Assembly: GCA_964291675.2 (NCBI GenBank)
Contig: OZ219866.1
Span: 2,176,001-2,240,000, forward strand
Direction: 5' to 3'
Origin: Alphaproteobacteria bacterium
GTDB lineage: Bacteria > Pseudomonadota > Alphaproteobacteria > MPNO01
DNA length: 64,000 nt
A model generated the notes under the pieces. That model searched no databases and was not told the DNA's origin. It saw only the letters and a list, made by a program, of their open reading frames with translations. Below, one piece after another: positions 1 through 30,835 of the stretch. Made by a program: the position numbers and the translations under genes. Position 1 is the stretch's first letter. Each line of letters opens with the position of its first letter.

Positions 1-2618
1 TTGCCGATACAGTCCTTGTTCTTCGACACCATGCGCTGCAACCCCAGCATGCGCGCCGTGGAATGGCCGTTCAGCTCGTTGCCGGCCGCGTGTCCCTTCT
101 CGATCCGCATCACCCCGAGCGCCTCGGTGCCGTAGGCGACCGCATCGAACTCCTCGCCGGCCGCAAACAGCGCTTCCATCAGCGCCTCGCCGTAGCGCGC
201 CGGCACGGCGATCTCGTAGGCCAGCTCGCCGGAGAACGAGATGCGGAACAGCCGGGCCGGCGTTCCGCCGCGCACGGCGATCTCGCCGCACGCCATGAAG
301 GGGAAGGTTTCGTCGGAGATGTCGTGCTCGGGATCGACGATCTTCTCCAGCAGCCTTCGCGAGTTGGGGCCGGCGACGGCGAACTGCGCCCACTGCTCGG
401 TCGCCGAGATCAGATGCACGTCGAGCCCGGGCCACAGGCACTGGCGGGCGAACTCCATGTTGCGGAACACCAGCACCGCGTTCGCCGTGGTCGTCGTCAT
501 GACGAAATGGTTCTCGCCGAGCCGCGCCGTCGTGCCGTCGTCGTAGACGAAGCCGTCCTCGCGCAGCATCAGGCCGTAGCGCACCTTGCCGACCGCGAGT
601 CTGGCGAAGCCGTTGGCGTAGATCCGGTTCACGAATTCCTGCGCGTCGCGTCCCTGGATGTCGATCTTGCCGAGCGTCGTCACGTCGCAGATGCCGACCG
701 AGGAGCGGGTCTGCAACACCTCCCGGTCGACCGACTGCCGCCAATGGGTCTCGCCCGGCAGCGGAAACCATTGCGCGCGCAGCCACATGCCGGTCTCGAC
801 GAACACGGCGCCCCGCCGTTCCGCCCAGTCGTGGCTCGGGGTCAGCCGGGTCGGTCGGAAGTCGCTGCCGCGCGAGCGCCCGCCGAAGGCCCCGATGGGG
901 ACCGGCGCATAGGGCGGGCGGAACACGGTCGTCCCGGTCTCGGCGATGCCGCGCCCGGTCAGCCCGGCCATGACCGCGAGCCCCAGCACATTGGCCGTCC
1001 TGCCCTGGTCGGTCGCCATGCCGAGCGTGGTGTAGCGCTTCAGATGCTCGACCGAGCGGAAGCCCTCGCGATGCGACTGTTCGACGTCCTTCACCGTCAC
1101 GTCGTTCTGCAGGTCGAGCCACGCGCGGCCCTTGCTCTCCCGAACGTGCCAGAAGGGGGCGATGTCGCCCGCCTCGTCGCTCGCGCCGGGCGGATCGCCC
1201 GCGGAATGTGGAATGCCGAGCTCTCCGAGCGCCTCGACCGCCGACCGGTGGCCCTCTGCGAGCGCCGCCGCGGTCGTCAGGCTGCCGCCGGCCGCGCCGG
1301 CGACGGCCATGCAAGGGGGCAGGTCGCCGCCCGGCACGAAAGCGGCGATTTCTTCGCGCCAGACCGGCCTGCCCCCGTGATGACAGGTCAGGTGGACGTT
1401 CGGGCTCCAGCCGCCGGAGACCGCGAGGCAATCCAGCGCGATCCGTTCGCCGGTCGCCAGCGTCACGCCCTTCAGGCCGTGGCGGCCCCGGGTCGCGGTC
1501 ACGCGGCCCCCCATCGCGATCCGGGCGCCCGGGACCTCGAACGGGGGCGCGCGATCCCGCACGTCGACGACCGCGGCAACCGATACGCCCCTGGCGGCGA
1601 GATCCGCCGCCGTGCGCCAGCCGTCGTCGTTGTTGACGAACAGCCCCACGTGGCGGCCCGCGCCGACCGCGAACCGGTTGGCGTAGGCCCGCGTTGCCCC
1701 AGCCAGCATGATCCCCGGGCGGTCGTTGCCGGCAAACGCGATCGGCCGCTCGGTAGCGCCCGCGCACAGAATCGCGCGCTTGCTGTAGATCCGCCACAGG
1801 ATCTGGCGCGGTTTTCCGTCCGCCGCGGCCAGATGATCCGTCCGGCGTTCCAGCGCGCCGTAGATACCGTGGTCGTAGGCGCCGAACACCGTGGTCCGCG
1901 GCATCGGGCGGACCCTCTCCATGGACGCCAGCTCGCCTACCGCCTCGGCCGCCCAGGCGGCGCCGGGCCGGCCGTCGACCTCATGGGTCTCGGCATTGAG
2001 CCGCCCGCCCATGACGAAATCCTCGTCGGCCAGGATGACCCGCGCGCCGCTTCGCCCGGCGGCTAGCGCGGCGGCAAGCCCGGCCGGACCCGCGCCGACG
2101 ACCAGCAGGTCGCAATGCAGGAAGCCCTTGTCGTAGCTGTCGGGGTCGGCCTCGCCCGACAGGCGTCCCAGACCGGCGGCCTCGCGGATGGCGGGCTCGT
2201 AGACCCGCTCCCAGAAGCTCTTCGGCCACATGAAGGTCTTGTAGTAGAAGCCGGCCGAGAGAAAGGGCGCGAGCAGGTCGTTGACCGCCATCAGGTCGCA
2301 GCGCAACGAGCCGAGGTGGTTCTGGCTCCTCGCCTCCAGCCCGTCGAACAGCTCGGCGACGGTTGCCCGCGTGTTCGGCTCCCGGTGCGCGCCGCTGCGC
2401 AGCTCGACCAGCGCGTTGGGCTCCTCCGAGCCGGAAGCGAAGACGCCGCGGGGCCGGTGGTACTTGAAGCTCCGCCCGACCAGCCGGATCCCGTTGGCGA
2501 GCAGCGCCGAGGCCAGGGTATCGCCGGGATGGCCGGTCAGCCGCCTTCCGTCGAAGCGGAAGGCGAGGCTGCGGGCGCGGTCGATCGCGCCGCCGTCCAG
2601 CCGGAACGGGCCGCTCAC
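1..2618 (-). CDS. soxA: Heterotetrameric sarcosine oxidase-family alpha subunit (N-methylglutamate dehydrogenase MgdC-like); 3' end outside window
   Basis: Not in the ORF track because it runs off the edge. Manual translation from GTG at 2618 (overlapping the soxD stop) gives SGPFRLDGGAIDR...GDTLASALLANG..VGRSFKYHRPRG...AGFYYKTFMWP...VVGAGPAGLAAA, typical of SoxA; C-terminal part is GcvT-like. Confidence 0.92.
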   Translation of the reverse strand, partial: MSGPFRLDGGAIDRARSLAFRFDGRRLTGHPGDTLASALLANGIRLVGRSFKYHRPRGVFASGSEEPNALVELRSGAHREPNTRATVAELFDGLEARSQNHLGSLRCDLMAVNDLLAPFLSAGFYYKTFMWPKSFWERVYEPAIREAAGLGRLSGEADPDSYDKGFLHCDLLVVGAGPAGLAAALAAGRSGARVILADEDFVMGGRLNAETHEVDGRPGAAWAAEAVGELASMERVRPMPRTTVFGAYDHGIYGALERRTDHLAAADGKPRQILWRIYSKRAILCAGATERPIAFAGNDRPGIMLAGATRAYANRFAVGAGRHVGLFVNNDDGWRTAADLAARGVSVAAVVDVRDRAPPFEVPGARIAMGGRVTATRGRHGLKGVTLATGERIALDCLAVSGGWSPNVHLTCHHGGRPVWREEIAAFVPGGDLPPCMAVAGAAGGSLTTAAALAEGHRSAVEALGELGIPHSAGDPPGASDEAGDIAPFWHVRESKGRAWLDLQNDVTVKDVEQSHREGFRSVEHLKRYTTLGMATDQGRTANVLGLAVMAGLTGRGIAETGTTVFRPPYAPVPIGAFGGRSRGSDFRPTRLTPSHDWAERRGAVFVETGMWLRAQWFPLPGETHWRQSVDREVLQTRSSVGICDVTTLGKIDIQGRDAQEFVNRIYANGFARLAVGKVRYGLMLREDGFVYDDGTTARLGENHFVMTTTTANAVLVFRNMEFARQCLWPGLDVHLISATEQWAQFAVAGPNSRRLLEKIVDPEHDISDETFPFMACGEIAVRGGTPARLFRISFSGELAYEIAVPARYGEALMEALFAAGEEFDAVAYGTEALGVMRIEKGHAAGNELNGHSTARMLGLQRMVSKNKDCIG

Positions 2619-2902
2619 CGGTCCCGCCCCCTGGCGAGCGCGACATCGCGCGCCAGCTCGACCCGGACGATCTCGTGGGTCAGCGTGTCGCGGGTCACCA
2701 CCAGCCAGGACCGGTCGCCCTGCTCGTGAAACCAGAGCTCGCGGTGCTCGCCGGCCGGGTTGTCGCGCAGATGGAGATAGTCGTGGAACCGCCGCCCCGC
2801 GTCGTCCGCCTGCCAGTCGGGCCGGTCGATCAGCGCGGCATCGCCCAGATAGACGAACTCCGCCGCATCGCGCGGGCCGAGCAGGGGATGGTCGATGATC
2901 AC
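2615..2902 (-). CDS. soxD: Sarcosine oxidase-family delta subunit (MgdB-like)
   Basis: 95 aa, GPRDAAEF..., YLHLRDNPAGEHRELWFH, WLVVTRDTLTHEI; lies between beta and alpha subunits. Confidence 0.9.
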   Translation of the reverse strand: MIIDHPLLGPRDAAEFVYLGDAALIDRPDWQADDAGRRFHDYLHLRDNPAGEHRELWFHEQGDRSWLVVTRDTLTHEIVRVELARDVALARGRDR

Positions 2903-2911
2903 GCCGTCCCC

Positions 2912-4162
2912 CTAGTGCAGGTTCGGCTGGGCGCCGGCGCCGTTCTCGGCGATCGGGGCGCCGGTGGCGAAACGGTCGAGCCGCATCGCCGCGGCGGCGG
3001 GGTGCGGCGCGCCGGTCGCCACCAGATGGGCCAGGCAATAGCCGCCCGCCGGGATCGCCTTGAAGCCGCCATAGCACCAGCCGCCGGTGAAATAGAGGCC
3101 CTCGACCGGAGTCCTGTCGATGAAGGGCGAGCCGTCCATCGACATGTCGACCACGCCGCCCCACATGCGCAGCACCCGCGCCCGGCCGATCGCCGGCATC
3201 AGCGCCATGCCGCCCTCGCAGACATCCTCCACCGTCGGCAGATTGCCCCGCCGGGCGTATGAGTTGTAGCCGTCGAGATCGCCGCCGAAGACGATTCCGC
3301 CCTTGTCCGACTGGCATACGTAGAAATGCCCGGCCCCGAAGGTGATCGCGCCGTGGATGAGGGGTTTCAGCCCTTCGGTCACGCAGGCCTGCAGGACATG
3401 GCTCTCGATCGGCAGGCGTAGCCCGGCGAGCTCCATCACCCGGCTGGACGAGCCGGCGGCGCAGACCGCCACCCTGTTCGCGCCGATGGCGCCGCGCGTC
3501 GTCTCGACGCCCCGGCAGACCCCGTCCCGGATGTCGAAGCCGGTGACCTCGCAGTTCTGGATCAAATCGACGCCGCGCCGGTCGGCGCCCCTTGCATAGC
3601 CCCAGACCACCGCGTCGTGGCGCGCCGTGCCGGCGCGCGGTTGCCACAGACCGCCCTTGATGGGGAAGCGCTCGTTGTCGAAGTCGAAGAACGGGAACTT
3701 GCGTTGCAGCGCTTCGCGGTCGAGCAGCACCGCATCCACCCCGGCCAGGATCATGGCGTTGCCGCGCCGGGCGGCGGCGTCGCGCTGGGGATCGTTGTGG
3801 AGCAGGTTGACGATCCCGCGCTGCGAGACCATGGCGTTGTAGTTGAGCTCCCGTTCCAGCCCCTCCCACAGCTTCATCGACAGTTCGTAAAAATGCTGGT
3901 TGCCGGGCAGCAGATAGTTGGACCGGACGATGGTCGTGTTGCGTCCGACATTGCCGGAGCCGAGCCAGCCCTTTTCCAGCACCGCGACATCGGTGAGCCC
4001 GTGCCGCTTCGCCAGATAGTAGGCCGTGGCGACGCCGTGCCCGCCGCCGCCCACGACGACGATGTCGTAGCGCCGCCTGGGCTCCGGCTCGCGCCAGAGC
4101 GGCTTCCAGCCGCGATTGCCGGTCAGGCCTTGCCTGAGGATTTGCAGGGCGGAATAGCGCAT
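2912..4162 (-). CDS. soxB: Sarcosine oxidase-family beta subunit (MgdA-like flavoprotein)
   Basis: MRYSALQ start (ATG 4162); VVGGGGHG FAD motif, GNVGRNTTIVRSNY, GTARHDAVVWGYA, GWCYGGFKA. Confidence 0.93.
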   Translation of the reverse strand: MRYSALQILRQGLTGNRGWKPLWREPEPRRRYDIVVVGGGGHGVATAYYLAKRHGLTDVAVLEKGWLGSGNVGRNTTIVRSNYLLPGNQHFYELSMKLWEGLERELNYNAMVSQRGIVNLLHNDPQRDAAARRGNAMILAGVDAVLLDREALQRKFPFFDFDNERFPIKGGLWQPRAGTARHDAVVWGYARGADRRGVDLIQNCEVTGFDIRDGVCRGVETTRGAIGANRVAVCAAGSSSRVMELAGLRLPIESHVLQACVTEGLKPLIHGAITFGAGHFYVCQSDKGGIVFGGDLDGYNSYARRGNLPTVEDVCEGGMALMPAIGRARVLRMWGGVVDMSMDGSPFIDRTPVEGLYFTGGWCYGGFKAIPAGGYCLAHLVATGAPHPAAAAMRLDRFATGAPIAENGAGAQPNLH

Positions 4163-4248: not shown

Positions 4249-5235
4249 ATGACGAAGCCGAACCCGGCCGCCCGCCGAATCGCCTTCCTGCTGGTCGAGG
4301 GATTCGCCCTGATGTCGTTCGCGGCCGTGACCGAGCCCTTGCGCGCGGCCAATTTGCTGGCCGGCAGGCGCATATACGAGACCTCCTTTTTCGCGGCGGG
4401 ATCGAGGCCCTCGGAGTTCCTCGACAGCTCGTCCGCGGCCTCGGTGGCGGTGGCGGCGCTCGGCGAAGCCACCGGCGAGTTCGACCTCGCCTTCGTCGTG
4501 GCCGGGGGCGATCCGGTCGGCTTCCGCGACGACGGCGCGTTCCAGTGGTTGCGGCGTCAGGCCCGGCACGGCTGCGTGCTTGGCGGGGTTTCCGGCGGTC
4601 CCGCGGTGCTCGCCAATGCCGGCGTCATGCGGAACCGGCGGATGACGCTTCACTGGGAGCATTCGGCCGCGCTGGAGGAGCGTCATCCCGGCCTGCTCCT
4701 GGAACGGACCCTTTACGTGGTGGACCGGGACCGCATGACCTGTGCCGGCGGCACGGCGCCGCTGGACATGATGCATGCCCTGATCGCCGAGCACCACGGT
4801 ACCGACTTCGCCCGCAGGGTCAGCGACTGGTTCATGCATACCGACGTGCGTCCCGCCGGCGGTCCGCAGCGGGCCGGTCTGGCGCAGCGCTACGGCACCA
4901 ACAGCCACACCGTGCTGGCCGCCATCGAGACCATGGAGAACCACATCGCCGACCCGCTCCCCTTGTCGGATCTGGCCCGGCTTGTCGGGGTGAGCGCGCG
5001 TCACCTGAACCGGCAGTTCGGCGCCGATCTGGGGTGCAGCGCCGGCGCGTTCTACCGCGATCTGCGCCTCGGCAAGTCGCGCGAGCTGTTGCGCCAGACC
5101 GCCCTGCCGGTGCTCGAAATTGCCATCGCGTCGGGCTTTTCCAGCGCCGCCCATTTCGCGACCGCCTACAGGAGGCGGTTCGGCGAGGCCCCGTCGCGCC
5201 ATCGCCTGGACGCGCTGCCGGCGAACCAATTCTGA
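4249..5235 (+). CDS. GlxA-family transcriptional regulator (DJ-1/PfpI-like domain + AraC HTH)
   Basis: FALMSFAAVTEPLRAAN, TLHWEH, TCAGGTAPLD, C-terminal IAIASGFSSAAHFATAYRRRFG; start taken at ATG 4249. Confidence 0.9.
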   Translation: MTKPNPAARRIAFLLVEGFALMSFAAVTEPLRAANLLAGRRIYETSFFAAGSRPSEFLDSSSAASVAVAALGEATGEFDLAFVVAGGDPVGFRDDGAFQWLRRQARHGCVLGGVSGGPAVLANAGVMRNRRMTLHWEHSAALEERHPGLLLERTLYVVDRDRMTCAGGTAPLDMMHALIAEHHGTDFARRVSDWFMHTDVRPAGGPQRAGLAQRYGTNSHTVLAAIETMENHIADPLPLSDLARLVGVSARHLNRQFGADLGCSAGAFYRDLRLGKSRELLRQTALPVLEIAIASGFSSAAHFATAYRRRFGEAPSRHRLDALPANQF

Positions 5236-5399: not shown

Positions 5400-6755
5400 A
5401 TGGAAGGCAATCTCAACGCCATAACGACGGTATTCACCGAGTTCTACTACTGGGCGACCATCCCGCTGATGTTCTTCATCCATATCGGCTTCTGCATGTA
5501 CGAGGTCGGCGCCAGCCGGCGGCGCAACCACATGCACACGCTGATGAAGAACACGATGCTGATCCCGCTGGTGACGATCACGTTCTTCTTCTTCGGCTGG
5601 TGGCTCTACTGGGCCATGCCGAACGGACCATGGATTACCGGCGGTCTCGACCTCGAGGCCGCGGCGGCCAACACGGCCTGGTCGGAGACCATGGGCCCGC
5701 ATGCCGGCGACCGCATCACCGGGGTGTTCTGGGCGGCCTTCCTGCTGTTCTCCTGGACGGCGGCCTCGATCGTCTCGGGATCGGTGATCGAACGGATCAA
5801 TTCCGGCGCGTTCTGGATCCTGGCGGTGGTGATCGGATCGGTCGCCTGGATCATCGATGCCGCCTGGGGCTGGCACTATGGCGGCTGGATGGTGCAGGTG
5901 CTCGGCTATCACGACGCCTACGCATCGGGCGTGATCCACGCGATCGCCGGCGGCTTCGCGCTCGGCATCCTGTTCGTGCTGGGGCCCAGGCTGGGCAAGT
6001 TCGCCAAGGACGGCACGCCGCGGGATATCACGCCGCACAACCCGTGGATGGTGTGCCTCGGGCTGTTCTTCATCTATGCCGGGTTCTGGGGCTTCTACGT
6101 GGCCTGCAACGTGCCGCTCATCGATCCCCCGACCATCGACGGCCAGATCACGGGCGCGACCTGGACGGCGACGACGATCTACCTGACGCCGACCACGCTC
6201 GGCGCGATCACGGTGAACTTCCTGATGTCGCTGTCGGGCGGTCTCCTGGTCGGCTACCTGGTCTCCGGGGGCAACGGCTTCTGGACCTATTCCGGCGGCC
6301 TGGCGGGCATCATCACGGCGTCGGCGGGCAACGACCTCTACCACCCGATCCAGGCCATGATCATCGCCGGCTTCGGCACCTGGTGCGCCTACAAGCTGCA
6401 TCACTGGGTGGAGCGCAAGTACAGGATCGACGATGCGGTCGGCGCCGTGGCGGTGCACGGCTATGCGGGGTTTATCGGCCTGGTGATCTGCGGCTTCGTG
6501 CTGTGGGGCCATCCGAGCTCGCCCTATGAAGGCTACGCCACGATCAACCCGCTCGGCCAGTTCGTCGGCGCGATCATCATGTTCTTCGTGCTCGGTTTCC
6601 TGCCCGGCTGGATCGTCGCCAAGATCCTTGCCGCGGCCGGCATGCTGCGCATCCCCAAGCAGGTCGAGCTGCTGGGGCTGGACTTCCGGACCAACCGGGA
6701 AGAACAGGCGGCCGCGGCCGACGTGCGCGCCACCGAGAAGGAAGCAGCGGCCTGA
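5400..6755 (+). CDS. Ammonium transporter (Amt) family permease, atypical; possible methylamine transporter
   Basis: From ATG 5400 (MEGNLNA); multi-TM; SIVSGSVIER, SGVIH, LGPRLGKF, IDDAVGAVAVHG motifs. Confidence 0.88.
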   Translation: MEGNLNAITTVFTEFYYWATIPLMFFIHIGFCMYEVGASRRRNHMHTLMKNTMLIPLVTITFFFFGWWLYWAMPNGPWITGGLDLEAAAANTAWSETMGPHAGDRITGVFWAAFLLFSWTAASIVSGSVIERINSGAFWILAVVIGSVAWIIDAAWGWHYGGWMVQVLGYHDAYASGVIHAIAGGFALGILFVLGPRLGKFAKDGTPRDITPHNPWMVCLGLFFIYAGFWGFYVACNVPLIDPPTIDGQITGATWTATTIYLTPTTLGAITVNFLMSLSGGLLVGYLVSGGNGFWTYSGGLAGIITASAGNDLYHPIQAMIIAGFGTWCAYKLHHWVERKYRIDDAVGAVAVHGYAGFIGLVICGFVLWGHPSSPYEGYATINPLGQFVGAIIMFFVLGFLPGWIVAKILAAAGMLRIPKQVELLGLDFRTNREEQAAAADVRATEKEAAA

Positions 6756-6790: not shown

Positions 6791-7009
6791 ATGTCTACCA
6801 CAGGCATCGAGAGCTGGGCCGTCGATCTGAAGGATGTCGGCGCCCTCTACCCCTTCCAGGGCGCCGAAGGCCTCTTCGTGATCGTCGGCGTGGCGCTGTG
6901 GATCGGCTGGCACGTGCTGCAGATCCGGGCCGAGAGGCGCGAATACGAGCAGATCGTGCGCGACCACGGCGACAACGCCACGATCGCCGAGGCGCTCGAA
7001 GGCGAGTAG
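6791..7009 (+). CDS. Small single-TM membrane protein co-oriented with amt
   Basis: 72 aa, strong RBS (AAGGAGA) upstream, one hydrophobic segment LFVIVGVALWIGWHVL. Confidence 0.75.
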   Translation: MSTTGIESWAVDLKDVGALYPFQGAEGLFVIVGVALWIGWHVLQIRAERREYEQIVRDHGDNATIAEALEGE

Positions 7010-7035
7010 TCGCGCCGCGCGGCTCCGCGACGTCG

Positions 7036-8559: not shown

Positions 8560-9525
8560 ATGGCGAAGGCGGAGCCGGTCGAGGTCGACTTCTTCCTGGT
8601 GCCGGGCTTTTCGCTGCTCGCGCTCTCCTGCGCGGTCGATGCGCTGCGCGCGGCCAACCTGGTGCTCGACCGCCCGGCCTATCGGTGGCGGCTGTCGGCC
8701 GATGCCGAGGGTGCCGAGGCGGGCGTGGCCTCGTCCAGCCATATCCGCCTCGCCGCGGCGCCGCTTTCCGGCCCGCCCGGTGGCGCCGGCGATCTGATCG
8801 CGGTGGTCGGCGGCGAGCGGTCGCACGATTACGATTCGCCGCCGCTGGCCGCCGCGCTCGGCCGCGCGGCCGGGCGCGGCGCCCGGATCGGCTCGATCTC
8901 CGACGGCGCGTTCCCTGTCGCCGCCGCCGGGCTGTTCGACGGCTACCGCTCGACCATCCACTGGAAATGCCTGGATGCCTATCGCGAGCGCTTCCCCGGT
9001 CTCGACATCCGCACCTCGATATTCGAGATCGACCGCAACCGGTTCAGCTGCGCCGGCGGGACCACCAGCCTCGACCTGATGCTCACATTCGTCATGGAGG
9101 CGCATGGCGCGGAGACCGCCGCCCTGGTGGCCGAGAACTACGTGCACGACCGGATTCGCGAATCGGCGCAGGAGCAGCAGGTTACCGCCGCCATCCGCAT
9201 GGCCGGCCGCAAGCGGCACCTGGCGGAGGCGATCCTGATCATGGAGCGGCACCTGGAAGACCCGCTCCCGGTCGGGCATATCGCCGATTCCGTCGGGCTG
9301 TCGGTCCGCCAGCTCGCCCGGCTGTTCCGCGACCATCTACGGCGCCCGCCGGGCAGGTTCTATCTCGACCTCAGGATCGACCGCGCCGCCAGCCTGCTGC
9401 GCCAGACCGGGCTCAGCGTCTCCGAGATCGCCGTCGGCTGCGGCTTCCAGTCCGCCTCCCATCTCGGCCGCCACCTCAAACGCCGCCACGGCACCACGCC
9501 CGGCCAGTGGCGCCGCGGGCCTTAG
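8560..9525 (+). CDS. GlxA-family AraC transcriptional regulator
   Basis: PGFSLLALSCAVDALRAAN, STIHW, SCAGGTTSLD, IAVGCGFQSASHL. Confidence 0.9.
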   Translation: MAKAEPVEVDFFLVPGFSLLALSCAVDALRAANLVLDRPAYRWRLSADAEGAEAGVASSSHIRLAAAPLSGPPGGAGDLIAVVGGERSHDYDSPPLAAALGRAAGRGARIGSISDGAFPVAAAGLFDGYRSTIHWKCLDAYRERFPGLDIRTSIFEIDRNRFSCAGGTTSLDLMLTFVMEAHGAETAALVAENYVHDRIRESAQEQQVTAAIRMAGRKRHLAEAILIMERHLEDPLPVGHIADSVGLSVRQLARLFRDHLRRPPGRFYLDLRIDRAASLLRQTGLSVSEIAVGCGFQSASHLGRHLKRRHGTTPGQWRRGP

Positions 9526-10433: not shown

Positions 10434-10548
10434 ATCAAGCGATCGCTCCCGAGTCGCGCCCCCCGCGGGTGAGCGTCTTGACTTTCCCCGTCTTCGGAGC
10501 TAGGTCGCCGGCTTGTCAATGGTGCGGGGCGGTACCGAGAATGTGCGC

Positions 10549-18308: not shown

Positions 18309-18375
18309 CGGTACATCAATGCAACAGGCATTCCACCTCCAAGGGGCGAAGCCACAAACCGCACGCGCCTGCCGG

Positions 18376-19002: not shown

Positions 19003-19050
19003 CTTCAGCCTCCTCTGTTCGTTTTATCGCCCGTCCGGCTCCGACGATCG

Positions 19051-23514: not shown

Positions 23515-24211
<697 letters not shown>

Positions 24212-24222
<11 letters not shown>

Positions 24223-25009
24223 GGCCCGCCCCGCTGTCGGCGGCCGCCCCGAGATAGGCCTCGATCACCGCCGGATCGTTGCGCACCTCCTCCGGCGCGC
24301 CTTCGACCAGAAGAGCGCCGAAATTCATCACCGTGATGGTGTCGCACAAATTCATGACCGCCTGCATGTCGTGCTCGACCAGCATGACGGTGACGCCGCC
24401 GTCGCGGATGCGCCGGACCAGCGACATCATGCGCCGGGTCTCCTGCGGGTTCATGCCGGTGAACGGCTCGTCCAGCAGCAGCACCTTCGGCTCCGCCGCC
24501 AGGGCGACCGCCATGCCGAGCATGCGCTGGTGCCCGTGCGACAGGTTGGATGCAAGCTCTCCGGCCAGGTCTTCGAGGCCGAAGAAGGCGAGCGTCTCCC
24601 GCGCCCTGGCGTCGGCGGCGCGTTCCGACGGCCGGTCGGTGCCGAGCAGGCGGCTCGCGAACCCGGCTCGGGCGGCGAGGTGGCGGCCGACCCGGACATT
24701 GTCGAGAACCGAGAGCTCCTGGAACAGGGTCGAGCCCTGGAAGGTGCGCACCAGGCCCATCGCGGCCAGCGCGCTGGTCTTGCGGCCGGAAACGTTGCGG
24801 CCGCGATAGAGGACCTGGCCCGCGTTCGGCGCGTAGAAGCCGCTGATCACGTTGAACGTCGTCGTCTTGCCGGCGCCGTTCGGCCCGATCAGCCCGTGGA
24901 TCGCCCCCGCGCGGACGGCGAAGCTGAAATTGTCGACCGCCACGAGGCCGCCGAACCGGCGGATCAGCCCGCGCGCCTCGAGGATCGGCTGCTCGCCCGG
25001 ACCGCTCAT
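24212..25009 (-). CDS. Branched-chain amino acid-type ABC transporter ATPase (LivG-like)
   Basis: From ATG 25009; [36 protein letters not shown]. Confidence 0.92.
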
Positions 25010-26037
25010 GCCGCCCCGCTCCCGGCCGCCGCCGGGTCCCGCTCGCGGCGCCGCAGCCGCGCGCGCAGCCTGGGTCCCAGGCTCTCCAGCCCGTCCGGCA
25101 GATAGAGCACCGACAGGATCAGGATGGCGCCGTAGATCAGCGGCCGGACCGTGTCCATGCCGAGCCCGCGCAGCACGATCTCGTTGATCACGGTCAGCAC
25201 CACGACGCCGAGGATCGGGCCGTGCAGGGTCGCGGTGCCGCCGACGATCGCCCAGACCAGGACATAGACCATCTGGTCGACGCCGAACCTTGTGGGGTTC
25301 ACCGCCCCGACATAGTGGCCGTAGAGGCCGCCGGCGATCCCGGCGAAGAAGGACGCGATGACGAAGGCAAGCGTCCGGTAGCGGAAGGTGTCGACGCCGA
25401 CGGACTCGGCGAGCCTGTCCTGCCAGTGGATGGCGTGGAAGGTGAGCCCGATGCGCGACCGCTCGATCCGGTAAAGGACGTAGAGCGATGCCGAGACCAC
25501 GATCAGCGCCAGGAAGTAGTAGTTGACCGGCTCGTAGAAATCGATCTCCAGGAAGCCGATATCGATGTCCGGAAAGGCGTCGATCCGCTTCAGCCCCTTG
25601 GGGCCGCCGAACGGGTCGGTGAAGCGCTTCCAGATCAGGCGGATGATCTCGCCGGCCGCAAACGAGCCGATCAGGAAGTAAAACCCCTTCATGCGGAACA
25701 GCGGGAAGCTCAGGATCGCCGCGCCGGCCGCGGCGACCATGCCGCCCGCCAGCATGGAGACCGGCACCGGCACGCCGAGCCGCTTGGTCAGCAACGCGCT
25801 GGCATAGGCGCCGACCCCCATCATGACGACATGGCCGAGCGACCATTCGCCGGTGAGCGTGAGCAGGCGGTAGCTGCACACCAGCAGGACGTTGATCACC
25901 AGCAGGACGGCGATCTCCTGCTGCGAATAGCTCAGCAGATAGGGCAGCGCGGCGAGCGCCGCAAACAGCAGGAGCAGCCGAAGCCTTACCGCCATGCGCC
26001 ACACCGCGTTGCCCGCCGCTTCCGCCCGCTCAGGCAC
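25006..26037 (-). CDS. LivM-like ABC permease
   Basis: [39 protein letters not shown]; start GTG 26037 or ATG 25995. Confidence 0.88.
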
Positions 26038-26893
26038 GTTCCTTCGCCCCGAACAGGCCGGTCGGCCGCACCACCAGCACGGCAAGCATCAGCGCGAGGC
26101 CGACGATGTTGGCGATCACCCCGTCGAAGAAGGTGGTCACGAAGGTGTGCACGAAGGCGTAGAGCACGGCTGCGATCACCGCGCCTTCGAGGCTGCCGAT
26201 GCCGCCGACGATGATGATTATGAAGGCGGTGACGATGACCGAATGGCCGATATAGGGGGTGGGGCTGACCAGCGGCGCGGTGAGCGCGCCGGCGACGCCG
26301 GCCAGCGCGGCGCCGATGAACATGGCGATGCGCGCGGTCTGGGTCATCGAGATGCCCTGGAGCGCGGCGGCCTCCGAATCCTGGGCGCAGGCGCGCAGCG
26401 CCCAGCCGAATCTGGTGCGCTTGAGGAAGGCCCACAGCGCGACCAGCAGCAGAACGGCGGCGACGATGACGAGCAGCCGCTGATGGGTCAGGACCGCGCC
26501 GAAGATATCGAGCTTCTCCTGGGTCGGCGGCGGAACGTGGCCCATGCGCCGGCCGAAGCCCAGCACGACCAGGGTCTGCAGGATCAGCAGGAAGCCGATC
26601 GATGCGATCAGCCCGCTCAGCGGGTTGTCCCGCAGCGGCCGGAACATCGCGCGTTCCATGAACAGGCCGACGAGACCGACGAACACCAGACCCGCGGCGA
26701 CCGCGGGCAGAAAGGGGAAGCTCTCCTGGGCGTAGAGATACACCACGCAATAGGCGCCCAGCATGTAGAGCTCGCCATGGGCGAAGTTGATCACCCCCAT
26801 GACGCCGAAGATCATCACCAGCCCGACCGCGATCAGCGACATGTAGCTGGCGGCATACATGGCGTTGATGGCGGTCTGCCACAGCAGATCCAT
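26030..26893 (-). CDS. LivH-like ABC permease
   Basis: GVMGVINFAHGELYMLG, GWALRACAQD, IVGGIGSLEG, VRPTGLFG. Confidence 0.92.
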   Translation of the reverse strand: MDLLWQTAINAMYAASYMSLIAVGLVMIFGVMGVINFAHGELYMLGAYCVVYLYAQESFPFLPAVAAGLVFVGLVGLFMERAMFRPLRDNPLSGLIASIGFLLILQTLVVLGFGRRMGHVPPPTQEKLDIFGAVLTHQRLLVIVAAVLLLVALWAFLKRTRFGWALRACAQDSEAAALQGISMTQTARIAMFIGAALAGVAGALTAPLVSPTPYIGHSVIVTAFIIIIVGGIGSLEGAVIAAVLYAFVHTFVTTFFDGVIANIVGLALMLAVLVVRPTGLFGAKERA

Positions 26894-26928
26894 CGGGCAG
26901 CCTCAAACGCTGTGGCGGAGAAACGGAA

Positions 26929-26955
26929 CCGGGGCCGGGCAGAGCCCGGCCCCGG
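26929..26955. terminator. Hairpin downstream of the binding-protein gene (attenuator or mRNA stabiliser)
   Basis: CCGGGGCCGGGC-AGA-GCCCGGCCCCGG perfect 12-bp stem. Confidence 0.55.
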
Positions 26956-27003
26956 CAGCCGATCCAGGCGCGGCGGCGATGCCGCGCGGATTGCGTCGCC
27001 GGA

Positions 27004-28311
27004 TCAGCGCTGGTTCCACATCTGGCCCAGCGCGGTCATGTGCTTGATCATCAGCTTGCTGTGCTTCGCCCACCAGGCGGGGATGGACTTGAAGGCCTTG
27101 ATCCGCGCCTTGCCGTCCTCGATGACCACGACCGGCCAGTTGCCGACCAGGGCGTTGTCGATGCCGAACAGCTCCTTGCCCCACCACTTGGCGTCGCCGA
27201 AGGCGTGCTTGCCGGTGCCGTCGGCCTTCATCGCTTTCAGGACCGGGCCGGGCTCGGCGCTGCCCGCCTTGGTGGCGGCATCGGCCCACAGATCCATGAT
27301 CGAGGCGTATTCCCAGGAGACGGCGCTCCATTCCGCGGCGCCGAAGCGCTTGGCGTATTCGGCGTAGAACTCGTTCGGCTTGACGAAATTCACGTCCTTG
27401 CTGTTCAGCGCCGGGTCGTCGAAATCCGGGAACTGGAAGATGAAGCCTTCCATGAACTCCTTGGACGTCTTCTCGATGATCTTCTGGTAGAAGTCGGCTG
27501 TGCAGGAGATGATCTGCCCCTTGTAGCCCTGCTGGAACGCCTGTTCGCAAAGCGGGTGGACATAGTCGGCGTAGCAGGTGTCCAGGCACAGGATGTCCGG
27601 CTTCTTGGCCAGCAGCTTGGTCATCACCGGCGCGAAATCGGTGGTCGCCGGATCGAAGAACTCCGGCTTGTCGACCATCTCGATCCCGGCCGCCTCGAAG
27701 GCTGCCAGGTAGGTCGCCACCGAAGGCTTGCCGAGCGCGTCGTCCTGCGCGCAGATCGCCGCGGTCTTCAGGTCCTTCTTGTTCTCCGCCAGCCATTCGA
27801 CCCCGGTCACGTTGTAGATCGGATGCACCTCGCACGGCGCGAGCAGGGTCTTGGTCTCCGGCGACAGGTCGCTCGGCAGCAGCGTCGAGAACAGCATGCC
27901 CTCGCGTTCGGCGATCTTCTGCACGCCCGGCCAGGTGTCGCCCCCCAGCATCATGACGAACTTGACGCCGTCCTCCTTGATCAGCTTGGTGGCGCCGGTA
28001 CGCGCCTTGGCGGGGTCGTATTCGTTGTCGTAGCCGACGAATTCGATCTTGTGCGACTTGTCGCCGATCTTGACACCGCCCTTGGCGTTGACCCAGTCGG
28101 CCCAGATCAGGCAGCCATCGAGGCCGGGCTTGCCCCACGCCGCCACCGGCCCGGTGAGCGGCGCGAGGAATCCGATCTTGATGGTCGCGTCCGCGGCGAA
28201 GGACACGCGGGGAAAGCCCGCCCCCATCGCCGCCAGCGCCGCTCCGGAAGCCGCCGAAGTGCCGAGGAATTTCCGCCTGCTGATCTTTCCGTCGAGTGAC
28301 TTGCGAGACAT
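27004..28311 (-). CDS. LivJ/K-type ABC substrate-binding protein with Tat signal peptide
   Basis: From ATG 28311: MSRKSLDGKISRRKFL (twin-arginine), IKIGFLAPLTG, NAKGG, TTDFAPV. Confidence 0.9.
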   Translation of the reverse strand: MSRKSLDGKISRRKFLGTSAASGAALAAMGAGFPRVSFAADATIKIGFLAPLTGPVAAWGKPGLDGCLIWADWVNAKGGVKIGDKSHKIEFVGYDNEYDPAKARTGATKLIKEDGVKFVMMLGGDTWPGVQKIAEREGMLFSTLLPSDLSPETKTLLAPCEVHPIYNVTGVEWLAENKKDLKTAAICAQDDALGKPSVATYLAAFEAAGIEMVDKPEFFDPATTDFAPVMTKLLAKKPDILCLDTCYADYVHPLCEQAFQQGYKGQIISCTADFYQKIIEKTSKEFMEGFIFQFPDFDDPALNSKDVNFVKPNEFYAEYAKRFGAAEWSAVSWEYASIMDLWADAATKAGSAEPGPVLKAMKADGTGKHAFGDAKWWGKELFGIDNALVGNWPVVVIEDGKARIKAFKSIPAWWAKHSKLMIKHMTALGQMWNQR

Positions 28312-28737: not shown

Positions 28738-30081
28738 ATGGCCAAACGGGTTGCGGTGATCGGCGCGGGGCCGTCCGGCCTGGCCCAGCTGCGGGCGTTC
28801 CACTCGGCGGCGGCCGGCGGGGCGGAGATTCCGGAGATCGTCTGCTTTGAGAAACAGGCCGACTGGGGCGGGCTGTGGAACTACACGTGGCGGACAGGGC
28901 TCGACGAATACGGCGAGCCGGTGCATTGCTCGATGTACCGTTACCTGTGGTCGAACGGCCCCAAGGAAGGGCTCGAGTTCGCCGACTATTCCTTCGAGGA
29001 GCATTTCGGCAGGCAGATCGCCTCCTACCCGCCGCGCGAGGTCCTGTTCGACTACATCGCCGGCCGGGCCAGGCAGGCCGGCGTGCGCGACCGGATCCGG
29101 TTCCTCACCCCGGTCCGGCGGGTCTCCTACGATTCCGGCTCCGGGCAATTCCGGGTCATCGCCCACGACCTGGCGAACGACCGGGAATACGGCGAGGATT
29201 TCGACCATGTCATCGTCGCGACGGGTCATTTCTCGACCCCCAACGTGCCGCATTTCGACGGTCTCGACGCGTTCAACGGCCGGGTCATGCACGCCCACGA
29301 TTTTCGCGACGCCGTCGAGTTCAAGGACAAGGACATCCTGATCATCGGCACCAGCTACTCGGCCGAGGATATCGGCTCGCAGTGCTGGAAGTACGGCTGC
29401 AAGTCGGTCACCGCCAGCCACCGCACCGCGCCGATGGGCTATGACTGGCCGGACAACTGGAAGGAGGTGCCGCTGCTGCAGAGGGTCGCGGGCAACACCT
29501 GCACCTTCAAGGACGGCTCGACGGCCGATGTCGACGCCATCATCCTGTGCACCGGCTATCTGCACCACTTTCCCTTCATGGCGCCGGAGCTGTGCCTCAA
29601 GACGGCCAACCGGCTGGCGACCGCGGATCTCTACAAGGGCGTGGTCTGGGTCGACAATCCGCGGCTGTTCTATCTCGGCATGCAGGACCAGTGGTACACC
29701 TTCAGCATGTTCGACGCCCAGGCCTGGTATGTCCGCGACATCGTGCTCGGCCGGATCGCGGTGCCCGACCGCGCGGCCCGCGCCGCCGACGTCGCCGACC
29801 GGGAGGCCCGGGAAGACGCCATCGAGGACGACTATGCCGCGATCCGCTACCAGGGCGACTATATCCGCGAGCTGATCGCGGACACCGATTACCCGAGCTT
29901 CGACGTCGACCGCACCGACGAGGCGTTCTTCGAGTGGAAGAAGTTCAAGAAGCAGGGGATCATGTCGTATCGCGACCACGGCCATCGCTCGGCCATGACC
30001 GGCACCGACGCCCCGGTCCACCATACGTCCTGGGTCGAGGAGATGGACGATTCGATGGAGAGCTATCTGCGGGACGGATAG
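28738..30081 (+). CDS. tmm: Trimethylamine monooxygenase (bacterial flavin-containing monooxygenase)
   Basis: [35 protein letters not shown] fingerprint [26 protein letters not shown]; start ATG 28738; linked to tdm. Confidence 0.92.
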
Positions 30082-30100
30082 AGGAACCCCTTCCCCGACC

Positions 30101-30835
30101 ATGCGGGCTTCGCCGGCGGAATGGGAGTGGGACGCCCTCTCGGCCGCCGCGCTGGAGGCCTATCGCGCGGCGCGGCGCGAGGAAGCGGTGCATTTGTGGC
30201 GGCGCGCGGGCGCGCTCGCGCAGGATTTTCCGGTCGGCGACCCGCGCCGCGCGGCCAGCGAGAACAACGGCGCGCTGGCCTTGCTGATCGACCACGATCA
30301 CGACGGCGCCGCCCGGGCGCTGTCGTCCGCGCTCGCTTCGTGGGACGGGGCGCTCGCGTGGACGCGCGGCATGTCGGTCGCGGCCGTCGCCCGCAGCTCG
30401 CTCTTTCACCAGCGCCTGGAGCAGCGCCATGTCGAGACCTATGGCGACGTCCGGCGCGCGCGGCACCGCGAATTCCTGAGCGGCGCGGCCGCGCTGACCC
30501 GCTTCAACCTCGCCATCGCCGATCTCTTCCTGGACCGGGACGACACGGCCGACCGCCTGCTCGAAACCGCCCTCGCCGAACGCGAGCGGGCGTTCGGGCC
30601 GAACAACGGGGAGGTCGCCGAGATCGCGCGCGTGCTGTCGGGCCGGGCCGACGCCGCCGGGGACGATGCCCGGATGGAGGCCTACGACGCCAGGGTCCGG
30701 GGCGCCGTCGAGAACCGGGCCGCCGACGTGCTCGACGCCTGGCGCCGGGAACAGCCGCTGGAGATGAACGATACCCGTCGCCTCCTGGCGGCGGCCTATC
30801 TCACGGCGATCGTGCACGAGCGGGATTTTCTCTAG
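30101..30835 (+). CDS. Hypothetical helical (TPR-like) protein downstream of tmm
   Basis: 19 bp after the tmm stop; Ala-rich helical repeats, DPRRAASENN, ARSSLFHQRLEQRH. Confidence 0.7.
   Translation: MRASPAEWEWDALSAAALEAYRAARREEAVHLWRRAGALAQDFPVGDPRRAASENNGALALLIDHDHDGAARALSSALASWDGALAWTRGMSVAAVARSSLFHQRLEQRHVETYGDVRRARHREFLSGAAALTRFNLAIADLFLDRDDTADRLLETALAERERAFGPNNGEVAEIARVLSGRADAAGDDARMEAYDARVRGAVENRAADVLDAWRREQPLEMNDTRRLLAAAYLTAIVHERDFL

What the first reader, a model, noticed from the sequence alone, without database searches (positions are those of the whole stretch)
1..30835. Methylated-amine island with the dimethylamine step missing and unexplained genes in its place
Seen: tmm, tdm, gmaS-mgsABC and soxBDA-type genes cluster within about 31 kb. 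Known: these cover TMA to TMAO to DMA, and MMA to GMA to NMG to methylene-THF; DMA to MMA normally needs DmmDABC (heme-dependent DMA monooxygenase) or a DMA dehydrogenase. Seen: neither is recognisable here, while at least six unassigned genes are embedded (7078-8421, 10549-11103, 11145-11555, 17286-19833, 20208-21053, 30101-30835). Inference: this lineage may use an undescribed DMA-processing route or accessory set.
Basis: partly seen in the sequence, partly recalled or inferred. Interest (0 to 1): 0.72.

Follow-up and report, generated by a model that had tools for sequence, protein, structure and literature searches.

The report
Paralogous amine module where dimethylamine step is missing
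This bacterium really lacks the known enzymes for breaking down dimethylamine, but the genes read as its ordinary methylamine pathway are a second, unstudied copy of that pathway, also found in SAR11 ocean bacteria, and this copy is the best candidate for the missing step.

Summary
Observation partly confirmed. tmm, tdm and soxBDA-type genes are real. No dmmDABC marker (PF11927, PF22290, PF22289) and no TMA/DMA-dehydrogenase-sized protein was found in the whole genome.

The "gmaS-mgsABC" at 11569-16239 is not the canonical methylamine module. Its ligase scores below NCBIfam's GmaS cut-off. A complete canonical mgsABC-gmaS-mgdABCD cluster lies about 420 kb away.

The island copy is a conserved sister module: DAO flavoprotein 7078-8421, GS-like ligase, split glutamate-synthase-like A/B/C and a 136-aa protein, plus a flavin-type split-barrel protein.

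Among the tdm-bearing genomes I examined, the module marker is in 54 of 57 without dmm and 1 of 41 with dmm. These samples are not phylogenetically independent.

Best reading (0.5): the module handles dimethylamine by glutamate-linked chemistry. Against it, 7 of 16 module-bearing genomes in an even sample have no tdm.

The other flagged genes are not DMA candidates. The MOSC/reductase/flavodoxin trio is a recent insert, 20208-21053 is a Nit2-like amidase, and 30101-30835 travels with tmm.

The missing dmm in such genomes is in print (Lidbury 2017); the module is not in the papers I searched. This scan noted the same module before on other DNA.

The parts
1..2618 (-). Sarcosine-oxidase-type alpha subunit (SoxA family). 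It runs off the left end of the window.
   Evidence: TIGR01372, 1232.6 bits, cut-off 1164. Pfam Fer2_4, SO_alpha_A3 and GCV_T.
2615..2902 (-). SoxD-type delta subunit.
   Evidence: PF04267, 101 bits.
2912..4162 (-). SoxB-type beta subunit.
   Evidence: TIGR01373, 657.1 bits, cut-off 529.45.
4249..5235 (+). AraC-type regulator with a DJ-1/PfpI domain (GbdR/TmaR-like), divergent from soxBDA.
   Evidence: Pfam HTH_18 and DJ-1_PfpI. NF052371 GbdR, 247.8 bits, below its cut-off of 480. A TmaR-type regulator next to mgd is described in PMC13390433 (passages read).
5400..6755 (+). Amt-family transporter; likely takes up (methyl)ammonium.
   Evidence: PF00909, 176.9 bits. It lies in 20 of the 80 tdm loci, usually beside the module.
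6791..7009 (+). 72-aa protein with one hydrophobic stretch, always placed just after amt.
   Evidence: No Pfam or NCBIfam match. The amt-orf72 pair recurs in 12 of 80 loci.
7078..8421 (-). DAO437: a 447-aa DAO-family FAD flavoprotein and member of the sister module. Proposed oxidative N-demethylase.
   Evidence: Pfam DAO matches residues 2-216 only. TIGR01373 gives 85.1 bits against a cut-off of 529.45. The best solved relative is SoxB, E 1.1e-13. Orthologs at 59% identity or more occur in 40 of 50 tdm+ genomes. In 10 of 12 class-sample genomes it lies 4.7-6.1 kb upstream of unk136 on the same strand.
8560..9525 (+). Second AraC/DJ-1-type regulator, divergent from DAO437.
   Evidence: Pfam HTH_18 and DJ-1_PfpI. 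The same arrangement occurs in L017 and L021-L023.
10543..11103 (+). unk186: a protein with the FMN-binding split-barrel (PNPOx-like) fold, an accessory to the module.
   Evidence: No Pfam or NCBIfam match. AlphaFold model pLDDT 95.8. VIA-align Z 10.2 to 3db0_B, and nearly all of the 50 rows shown are split-barrel proteins. Foldseek found nothing at E <= 0.001.
11145..11555 (-). unk136: a 136-aa protein of no known family and the last gene of the sister operon.
   Evidence: 65 invariant columns in 17 sequences from several phyla. It lies directly after the MgsC-like gene in 28 of 80 loci. The structure model is poor, pLDDT 59.7.
11569..12945 (-). Mgs'C: FMN-type glutamate-synthase domain protein, a paralog of canonical MgsC.
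   Evidence: PF01645, 303.2 bits. It is 50% identical to the canonical MgsC of this genome. Mean column identity is 88% across phyla.
12978..13820 (-). Mgs'B: GXGXG-domain protein.
   Evidence: PF01493.
13808..14743 (-). Mgs'A: class-II amidotransferase-like protein.
   Evidence: PF13522 and PF13537.
14770..16239 (-). GS': a glutamine-synthetase-like ligase, sister to GmaS. Proposed gamma-glutamyl-dimethylamide synthetase.
   Evidence: TIGR03105, 303.6 bits, below the cut-off of 469.6. It is 30-36% identical to this genome's canonical GmaS. Orthologs in other phyla are 63-95% identical.
16538..17278 (+). GntR/FCD regulator.
   Evidence: PF00392 and PF07729. It is conserved between tdm and GS' in many loci.
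17286..19833 (-). Lineage-specific three-gene insert: FAD/NAD/2Fe-2S reductase (17286-18308), Flavodoxin_2/azoreductase-like protein (18376-19002) and MOSC protein (19051-19833).
   Evidence: Pfam and NCBIfam. It occurs only in L006 and L007 of the 80 tdm loci. The reductase has no DmmA-like_N match.
20208..21053 (-). Nit1/Nit2-like carbon-nitrogen hydrolase (omega-amidase type).
   Evidence: PF00795, 173.2 bits. The closest solved chain is mouse Nit2, E 9.5e-43. It lies next to tdm in 14 of the 18 closest loci.
21089..23485 (-). Tdm, TMAO demethylase.
   Evidence: NF053776, 1225 bits, cut-off 1100.
23515..28206 (-). Liv/HAAT-type ABC transporter: two ATPases, two permeases and a Peripla_BP_6 binding protein.
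   Evidence: Pfam. It recurs beside tdm/tmm in the close clade and in L026, L051 and L063.
28756..30081 (+). Tmm, trimethylamine monooxygenase.
   Evidence: NF058570, 805.1 bits, cut-off 675.
30101..30835 (+). unk244: a protein of no known family that always follows tmm.
   Evidence: No Pfam or NCBIfam match. The tmm-unk244 pair is in 15 loci.

Best explanation
The island holds Tmm, Tdm, a transporter and regulators. Where a dimethylamine enzyme would be expected, it holds a paralogous 'sister' of the N-methylglutamate pathway rather than the canonical methylamine genes.

Module parts:
- a GS-like ligase (14770-16239)
- a split glutamate-synthase-like enzyme, Mgs'A/B/C (11569-14743)
- a 136-aa protein (11145-11555)
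- a DAO-family flavoprotein (7078-8421)
- a flavin-type split-barrel protein (10543-11103)

Shown here: the module is a distinct orthologous group, it coexists with a full canonical mgsABC-gmaS-mgdABCD cluster elsewhere in the genome, and it is complementary to dmmDABC among tdm-bearing genomes.

Inferred mechanism:
1. The ligase joins dimethylamine to glutamate, giving gamma-glutamyl-dimethylamide.
2. Mgs'ABC passes the amine to the 2-oxoglutarate skeleton, giving N,N-dimethylglutamate.
3. The DAO flavoprotein removes one methyl group as formaldehyde, giving N-methylglutamate.
4. An Mgd/Sox-type four-subunit dehydrogenase finishes the job.

DMA would thus be mineralised without free methylamine and without DmmDABC.

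The MOSC/reductase/flavodoxin trio, the Nit2-like amidase and the tmm-linked 244-aa protein are side functions, not the DMA step. The trio probably reduces N-oxygenated by-products. The amidase probably salvages 2-oxoglutaramate-type derivatives of the gamma-glutamyl amides. Both roles are inference.
For: 1) No known DMA enzyme was found in the genome (controls).

2) The island ligase fails the GmaS model: 303.6 bits against a cut-off of 469.6. A canonical GmaS (668.1 bits) lies in an eight-gene mgsABC-gmaS-mgdABCD cluster at L113:6815-16236.

3) Canonical GmaS orthologs (59% identity or more) coexist with the module in 14 of the 16 module-bearing genomes of the class sample. So the module is an extra function, not a replacement of the methylamine pathway.

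4) Complementarity with dmm:
- In the evenly drawn class sample, 11 of 200 genomes have tdm. Nine carry the module marker and no dmmDABC. Two carry dmmDABC and no marker.
- In 50 genomes chosen by Tdm likeness, the marker is in 47. A real dmmDABC is in 1.
- In 40 genomes chosen by DmmC, tdm is in 39 and the marker in 0.

5) Gene order follows pathway order. tdm, DAO437 and GS' are consecutive in L047 and L061; tdm is followed by DAO437 in L035; DAO437 is followed by GS' in L055 and L085, the latter a Pelagibacteraceae record.

6) 9 of 10 tested module-bearing genomes carry two SoxD-type operons. The proposed last step is therefore available, and DAO437 is not needed as an N-methylglutamate dehydrogenase.

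7) Literature (passages read):
- dmm is absent from SAR11 and from marine Gamma- and Deltaproteobacteria (PMC5520151).
- SAR11_1304, annotated 'monomeric sarcosine oxidase', lies next to SAR11_1303. Sun et al. call SAR11_1303 an aminomethyltransferase of unknown substrate; that it is Tdm is my recollection (PMC3160333).
- SAR11_1304 is the second most induced protein under nitrogen limitation, and its function is unknown (PMC3870248).
Against: 1) In the class sample, 7 of the 16 module-bearing genomes have no tdm. DAO437 is in 7 of 7 tdm-less but only 5 of 9 tdm+ module genomes. The module does not depend on TMAO-derived DMA.

2) One genome (G270) has both a real dmmDABC and the module.

3) The three samples are not independent. 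The dmm+ set is almost entirely Rhodobacterales, Mesorhizobium and Kiloniella. The 50-genome set was chosen by likeness to this Tdm. So the pattern could be two island types inherited as blocks.

4) No substrate evidence exists. GS-like ligases accept many amines (recalled: putrescine, isopropylamine, ethylamine).

5) By the paper's own words, no SAR11 strain has been shown to oxidise DMA (PMC5520151).

6) In this genome DAO437 is separated from the operon by a regulator and unk186.

7) DAO437 has no folate-binding domain to take up formaldehyde.
Confidence: 0.5

Rival explanations
1. The DMA gap is real. The organism oxidises TMA and TMAO only as far as DMA, which it releases; this is the published 'bottleneck'. 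The sister module is a second glutamate-linked route for methylamine (for example high-affinity nitrogen scavenging) or for another primary amine.
For: - 7 of 16 module-bearing genomes lack tdm.
- DAO437 is not enriched in tdm+ module genomes: 5 of 9 against 7 of 7.
- The SAR11 protein of this description is induced by nitrogen limitation together with AmtB (PMC3870248, passages read).
- An Amt transporter travels with the module.
- No SAR11 strain is known to oxidise DMA (PMC5520151, passages read).
Against: - This reading does not explain why the module marker is in 54 of 57 dmm-less but 1 of 41 dmm-bearing tdm+ genomes.
- 14 of 16 module genomes already have a canonical GmaS.
Confidence: 0.3
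2. The DAO-family flavoprotein 7078-8421 alone is a dimethylamine oxidase or dehydrogenase (DMA to MMA plus formaldehyde). The rest of the module is an ordinary variant of GmaS/MgsABC that takes the methylamine. This is the idea raised for SAR11 in print.
For: - Its position between tdm and GS' in L047, L061 and L035.
- Orthologs in 40 of 50 tdm+ genomes.
- Lidbury et al. name an 'amine oxidase' of SAR11 as an untested candidate (PMC5520151, passages read).
Against: - 10 of 50 tdm+ genomes lack DAO437, while only 3 of 50 lack the module marker.
- 4 of 9 tdm+ module genomes in the class sample lack DAO437.
- This reading leaves the duplication of the ligase and synthase beside a canonical set unexplained.
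Confidence: 0.1
3. The MOSC protein, the 2Fe-2S flavin reductase and the flavodoxin-like protein (17286-19833) form the undescribed DMA-processing system.
For: They lie between the regulator and tdm. The reductase has the same domain order as the reductase subunit of many oxygenases.
Against: - The trio is found in only 2 of 80 tdm loci, L006 and L007. The other 16 of the 18 closest loci lack it.
- The reductase has no DmmA-like_N domain.
- MOSC enzymes are reductases of N-oxygenated compounds (recalled), not demethylases.
Confidence: 0.03

Closest known systems
N-methylglutamate pathway: GmaS, NMG synthase MgsABC, NMG dehydrogenase MgdABCD (Methyloversatilis, Methylocella, Ruegeria pomeroyi)
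   Same: Same four protein families in the same order: a GS-like ligase, a class-II amidotransferase, a GXGXG protein and an FMN glutamate-synthase domain. Mgs'C is 50% identical to this genome's canonical MgsC, and both keep the C-x2-C-x4-C motif.
   Different: The ligase is below the GmaS model cut-off and 30-36% identical to the canonical GmaS. The module carries a single DAO flavoprotein, a 136-aa protein and a split-barrel protein that the canonical cluster lacks. It coexists with the canonical cluster.
Dimethylamine monooxygenase DmmDABC (haem-dependent oxidative N-demethylase type)
   Same: It occupies the same logical place in TMA/TMAO islands. The two are nearly mutually exclusive among the tdm+ genomes examined.
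   Different: No shared protein family. PF11927, PF22290 and PF22289 were not found in this genome.
SoxB/MgdA beta subunit of heterotetrameric sarcosine oxidase, and dimethylglycine oxidase
   Same: DAO437 shares the FAD-binding N-terminal half. SoxB is the best solved relative (E 1.1e-13), and dimethylglycine oxidase/dehydrogenase match weakly. The proposed reaction, tertiary to secondary N-methyl amino acid, mirrors dimethylglycine to sarcosine.
   Different: TIGR01373 gives only 85.1 bits against a cut-off of 529.45. The C-terminal 230 residues match no model. There is no fused folate-binding domain, and no SoxD/A/G partners are encoded beside it in most loci.
SAR11_1304 of 'Ca. Pelagibacter ubique' HTCC1062 (annotated monomeric sarcosine oxidase)
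   Same: The description and context fit. It is a single-subunit Sox-like gene next to SAR11_1303, an aminomethyltransferase of unknown substrate in PMC3160333 (that this is Tdm is recalled). Its function is unknown and it is induced under nitrogen limitation (PMC3870248). A Pelagibacteraceae record (L085) carries a 63% identical DAO437 homolog upstream of GS'.
   Different: I did not compare the HTCC1062 sequence itself, so orthology is inferred.

Membership tests
DmmDABC dimethylamine monooxygenase | Haem subunit of family PF11927 (HODM alpha / DmmC) | tested here: not met
   0 matches in the whole genome. The same search rang in 21 of 201 class genomes.
DmmDABC dimethylamine monooxygenase | DmmA-like domains PF22290 and PF22289 | tested here: not met
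   0 matches in the genome. PF22289 rang in G133, G145 and G270.
DmmDABC dimethylamine monooxygenase | Reductase subunit with DmmA-like_N plus 2Fe-2S domains | tested here: not met
   The reductase at 17286-18308 has FAD_binding_6, NAD_binding_1 and Fer2 but no PF22290. True DmmB proteins show PF22290.
Trimethylamine/dimethylamine dehydrogenase | N-terminal Oxidored_FMN domain followed by a roughly 350-aa ADP-binding part (about 730 aa; the length is recalled) | tested here: not met
   5 PF00724 matches in 4 frames. The frames end 0-80 residues after the FMN domain.
GmaS (TIGR03105, type III glutamate-ammonia ligase equivalog) | Score at or above the curated cut-off of 469.6 bits | tested here: not met
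   The window ligase scores 303.6 bits. The second ligase of the genome, L113:9748-11052, scores 668.1 bits.
NMG synthase MgsABC | Three adjacent genes: class-II GATase, GXGXG protein, FMN Glu_synthase domain | tested here: met
   Pfam. This is an architecture-level match only. The window set is a paralog of the canonical set (50% identity for MgsC).
Sarcosine oxidase beta family (TIGR01373) | Score at or above 529.45 bits | tested here: not met
   DAO437 scores 85.1 bits, residues 1-205 only. The window's SoxB scores 657.1 bits.
TMAO demethylase Tdm (NF053776) | Score at or above 1100 bits; DUF1989 plus GCV_T architecture | tested here: met
   1225 bits. Pfam DUF1989, GCV_T and GCV_T_C.
Trimethylamine monooxygenase Tmm (NF058570) | Score at or above 675 bits | tested here: met
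   805.1 bits.
FMN-binding split-barrel (PNPOx-like) superfamily | Split beta-barrel fold | tested here: met
   unk186 model pLDDT 95.8. VIA-align Z 10.2, rmsd 2.4, 111 residues aligned to 3db0_B, with 13 chains at Z >= 8. Foldseek found nothing at E <= 0.001.
FMN-binding split-barrel (PNPOx-like) superfamily | Bound flavin, F420 or haem cofactor | not testable with these tools
   No coordinates or ligand modelling were available.
Nit1/Nit2 branch of the nitrilase superfamily | CN_hydrolase domain with closest likeness to Nit2 / omega-amidase | tested here: met
   PF00795, 173.2 bits. Mouse Nit2 E 9.5e-43, yeast YLR351C E 2.7e-39. It is below the cut-offs of the two deaminated-glutathione amidase models.

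The most novel reading that the evidence does not exclude
A glutamate-mediated dimethylamine pathway exists that needs no DmmDABC and produces no free methylamine:
DMA -> gamma-glutamyl-dimethylamide (GS-like ligase) -> N,N-dimethylglutamate (Mgs'ABC with the 136-aa protein) -> N-methylglutamate (DAO flavoprotein) -> glutamate (Mgd).

It would be carried by SAR11, SAR324, many marine Alpha- and Gammaproteobacteria, Acidobacteriota and Latescibacterota. The supposed marine 'DMA bottleneck' would then be largely an annotation gap.
Probability: 0.3. Interest if true: 0.9.

Novelty: new variant of a known kind. Interest (0 to 1): 0.7.

Why it matters
Methylated amines are a sizeable pool of marine dissolved nitrogen and a source of aerosol-forming gases.

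Since 2013-2017 it has been an open question how SAR11 and other abundant bacteria that make DMA from TMAO dispose of it. They lack dmmDABC, and the gap has been used to explain DMA-rich marine aerosols (PMC5520151).

This work gives a defined gene set of six or seven genes that is almost mutually exclusive with dmm in tdm-bearing genomes. That makes the question directly testable with ordinary enzymology and complementation.

It also shows two annotation problems:
- Counting 'gmaS' or 'mgsABC' by family-level likeness mixes two different modules.
- PF11927 alone overcalls dmm. Only 1 of the 5 PF11927 hits had dmm neighbours. Three of the other four were checked by Pfam on one or more neighbours, and G248 only by matching gene lengths.

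Tried and rejected
- Complex prediction of Mgs'C (alignment A3) with the 136-aa protein (A1): no verdict, score 0.02 against a mark of 0.32. This says nothing either way about binding.
- Structure model of the 136-aa protein: pLDDT 59.7, too poor for a fold search. The ESM Atlas gave only scores of 0.85 or less to unrelated clusters.
- ESM Atlas for DAO437: returned only generic DAO clusters.
- Foldseek of the unk186 model against the PDB: nothing at E <= 0.001. The fold call rests on VIA-align.
- Rfam on window 1-34000: no match at gathering scores. The gene-poor stretch 9526-10542 stays unexplained.
- MOSC protein against PDB sequences: no hit at E <= 0.01.
- I first thought that close relatives G245 and G248 had swapped DAO437 for dmm. 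Rejected: their PF11927 gene stands alone beside Sel1-repeat and glycosyltransferase genes. Pfam was run on the G245 locus L093. G248 (L094) was judged only by the same run of gene lengths.
- I first read DAO437 as a possible single-subunit NMG dehydrogenase. Set aside because 9 of 10 module genomes have two SoxD operons.
In this genome both paralogs keep C-x2-C-x4-C, so I did not use that argument.
- Run search and read laying: contigs of one sponge RNA library lie on all 30 bins of 4001-24000 at 88-95% likeness. They come from relatives, DNA carry-over is not excluded, and contigs cannot rank genes. So this is no proof of expression or habitat.
- Supplementary tables of PMC5520151 (distribution of dmm) could not be read and may list further lineages.

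Full report
**Anatomy**

The window is about 68% G+C, so I called genes by third-position G+C and named them with Pfam and NCBIfam. From left to right, 1-30835 holds:
- soxA/D/B-type genes (1-4162, minus strand)
- an AraC/DJ-1 regulator (4249-5235)
- an Amt transporter with a 72-aa partner (5400-7009)
- a 447-aa DAO-family flavoprotein, here called DAO437 (7078-8421, minus strand)
- a second AraC/DJ-1 regulator (8560-9525)
- unk186 (10543-11103)
- a minus-strand operon: GS-like ligase, GATase, GXGXG protein, Glu_synthase domain protein, unk136 (16239 down to 11145)
- a GntR regulator (16538-17278)
- a reductase, a flavodoxin-like protein and a MOSC protein (17286-19833)
- a CN_hydrolase (20208-21053)
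- Tdm (21089-23485)
- a Liv-type ABC transporter (23515-28206)
- Tmm (28756-30081)
- unk244 (30101-30835)

Tdm, Tmm, SoxB and SoxA pass their curated NCBIfam cut-offs.

**Are the known DMA enzymes missing?**

Yes, as far as these searches reach.
- The genome (2 contigs, 4.81 Mb, 93.7% complete) has no match to PF11927, PF22290 or PF22289.
- None of 41 genomes of the same genus, family and order has PF11927.
- The searches work. PF11927 rang in 21 of 201 genomes drawn evenly from the class. PF22289 rang in 3 of 5 genomes, exactly those with a dmm operon.
- Pfam scans of true dmm loci showed the expected order: GcvT-like DmmD, DmmA (PF22290 plus PF22289), DmmB (PF22290 plus Fer2), DmmC (PF11927).
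- Oxidored_FMN (PF00724) gave 5 matches in 4 frames. None has room for the C-terminal half of TMA/DMA dehydrogenase.
- The 12 kb left of the window holds a likely soxG and then unrelated genes.

**This gap is already in print**

Lidbury et al. 2017 (PMC5520151, passages read) report that dmmDABC is absent from all SAR11 and from abundant marine Gamma- and Deltaproteobacteria that carry tmm, tdm and gmaS. They call this a metabolic bottleneck. They mention an untested 'amine oxidase' of SAR11.

**The embedded genes are not one thing**

I fetched 80 loci around Tdm relatives and laid the window's 31 proteins on them.
- The reductase/flavodoxin/MOSC trio is in 2 of the 80 loci (L006, L007). It is missing from the other 16 of the 18 closest loci, where GntR abuts the hydrolase or tdm. 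It is a recent insert.
- The hydrolase is next to tdm in 14 of the 18 closest loci and in 3 distant ones. Its nearest solved relatives are Nit2 and yeast Nit3-type omega-amidases.
- unk244 always follows tmm. PMC13390433 (passages read) also notes a gene of unknown function beside tmm.
- unk136 is 59-93% identical and lies directly behind the MgsC-like gene in 28 of the 80 loci, from Alpha- and Gammaproteobacteria, SAR324, Latescibacterota and Acidimicrobiia.
- DAO437 is 59-90% identical in 11 loci, including Acidobacteriota, Terriglobia, SAR324 and a Pelagibacteraceae record.

**The turn: the island's gmaS-mgsABC is a paralog**

Notes of earlier agents in this scan said that such 'gmaS-mgsABC' blocks are a sister system. 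I tested that here.
- The window ligase scores 303.6 bits on the GmaS model TIGR03105, whose cut-off is 469.6.
- Searching the genome with the window's ligase and MgsC-like protein found a second set at C2, about 1.756-1.759 Mb.
- That region (L113) encodes mgsA, mgsB, mgsC, gmaS (668.1 bits) and four Sox-like genes in a row, that is mgsABC-gmaS-mgdABCD.
- The two MgsC proteins are 50% identical. The two ligases are 30-36% identical.

So the canonical methylamine pathway lies about 420 kb from the island, and the island carries a paralogous module.

**Is the module a separate function?**

- In the class sample of 200 genomes, the marker unk136 is in 16.
- DAO437 orthologs are in 17, two of them partial.
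- In 10 of the 12 genomes with both, DAO437 lies 4.7-6.1 kb upstream of unk136 on the same strand. That is just the room needed for the ligase and Mgs'ABC.
- Canonical GmaS orthologs (59-81% identical) are present in 14 of the 16 module genomes. They are missing in G134 and G143.
- 9 of 10 module genomes tested have two SoxD-type operons; G116 has none.

The module is thus an addition to a complete methylamine pathway, not a variant of it.

**Relation to dmm and tdm**

PF11927 alone overcalls dmm. Of 5 hits among 50 tdm+ genomes, only G270 has dmmD-A-B-C. G245 stands alone by Pfam of its neighbours. G248 was judged only by the same run of gene lengths. In G278 and G286 I tested only the downstream neighbours.

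| Sample | tdm+ | Module marker | Real dmmDABC |
|---|---|---|---|
| Even class sample (200 genomes) | 11 | 9 | 2 (neither carries the marker) |
| 50 genomes chosen by Tdm likeness (50 of the 80 loci) | 50 | 47 | 1 |
| 40 genomes chosen by DmmC likeness (40 of 80 loci; Rhodobacterales, Mesorhizobium, Kiloniella) | 39 | 0 | not checked locus by locus; their DmmC is 82-100% identical to a validated one |

- Two of the three genomes in the second row without the marker have the module cut by a contig end (L047, L085).
- DAO437 is in 40 of the 50 genomes of the second row.
- Two genomes occur in two samples (G195 = G249, G133 = G290). Counting them once, the marker is in 54 of 57 dmm-less and 1 of 41 dmm-bearing tdm+ genomes.

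Caveats that weaken this:
- The last two samples were chosen by likeness and are dominated by a few lineages.
- In the even sample, 7 of 16 module genomes have no tdm.
- DAO437 is in 7 of 7 tdm-less but only 5 of 9 tdm+ module genomes.
- G270 has both systems.

**Mechanism (inference)**

By analogy with GmaS/MgsABC/Mgd and with dimethylglycine oxidase, I propose:
1. The ligase makes gamma-glutamyl-dimethylamide.
2. Mgs'ABC makes N,N-dimethylglutamate.
3. DAO437 removes one methyl group, giving N-methylglutamate.
4. A four-subunit Mgd/Sox enzyme completes the conversion.

This explains three things: why the module has one flavoprotein and no four-subunit dehydrogenase of its own, why it coexists with mgd, and why a genome without canonical gmaS (G143, complete, two SoxD operons) can still carry it.

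The roles of the other parts are guesses:
- unk186 folds with high confidence (pLDDT 95.8) into the FMN-binding split barrel (Z 10.2). It may be a redox partner.
- unk136 has no recognisable fold. A test of binding to Mgs'C gave no verdict.
- The Nit2-like amidase would fit salvage of transaminated gamma-glutamyl amides.
- The MOSC trio would fit reduction of N-oxygenated by-products of Tmm.

**Literature check**

- SAR11_1304 ('monomeric sarcosine oxidase') lies next to SAR11_1303, which Sun et al. call an aminomethyltransferase of unknown substrate (PMC3160333, passages read). That this gene is Tdm is my recollection.
- SAR11_1304 is the second most induced protein under nitrogen limitation, its function is unknown, and the authors raise the DMA question explicitly (PMC3870248, passages read).
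- A search for SAR11_1304 found only these two papers.
- Searches for DMA dehydrogenase or oxidase and for dimethylglutamate, dimethylglutamine and glutamyl-dimethylamide found no paper on such a route.
- That DAO437 is the ortholog of SAR11_1304 is inferred from description and context, not from a sequence comparison.

**Verdict**

- The finding is a new variant of a known kind of pathway.
- Its link to DMA is supported by comparative genomics only.
- The same module was noted before by this scan on other genomes.

Noticed in passing
window 23515-28206: A Liv/HAAT-type ABC transporter lies between tdm and tmm. It recurs beside tdm/tmm in the close clade and at 52-84% identity in L026, L051, L060 and L063. 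It is a different family from the published TMAO transporter TmoXWV, so it may be an undescribed methylated-amine importer.
   Followed up: partly
window 5400-7009: The Amt-family transporter is followed by a 72-aa protein with one hydrophobic stretch and no known family. The pair is conserved in 12 of the 80 tdm loci across classes.
   Followed up: partly
window 30101-30835: A 244-aa protein of no family always sits directly after tmm (15 loci). A 2026 paper notes a gene of unknown function beside tmm in many strains. I did not test whether it is the same gene.
   Followed up: no
L093:8859-9752, L094, L096:4935-5858, L097:4955-5851: Stand-alone PF11927 (HODM alpha-like) proteins with no dmmA/B/D next to them. 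Their neighbours are a Sel1-repeat protein and a glycosyltransferase, a FAS1-dehydratase-like protein, and ruvAB. PF11927 alone therefore overcounts dimethylamine monooxygenase, and these proteins have some other, unknown role.
   Followed up: partly
window 9526-10542: A stretch of about 1 kb between the second AraC regulator and unk186 has weak coding signal and no Rfam match.
   Followed up: partly
window 17286-19833: MOSC protein, 2Fe-2S flavin reductase and azoreductase-like flavodoxin form a compact three-gene insert shared only with the two closest relatives. It looks like a complete electron chain to a molybdenum enzyme. It may reduce TMAO or N-hydroxylated amines.
   Followed up: partly
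L092:4121-4899 (G000:C2:2168121-2168899): A PrlF/YhaV-type toxin-antitoxin pair lies about 7 kb left of the window.
   Followed up: no
window 30989-33473: An Amidohydro_2 protein, a 134-aa protein without family and a di-haem cytochrome c peroxidase (MauG/CCP family) follow unk244. The first two are also present in L006.
   Followed up: no
G249:C2:563310-564638, G283:C3:312313-313638, G265:C23:25507-26838: A second family of 447-460-aa flavoproteins, 38-43% identical to DAO437, occurs in some genomes. This genome has none. Their gene context was not examined.
   Followed up: no
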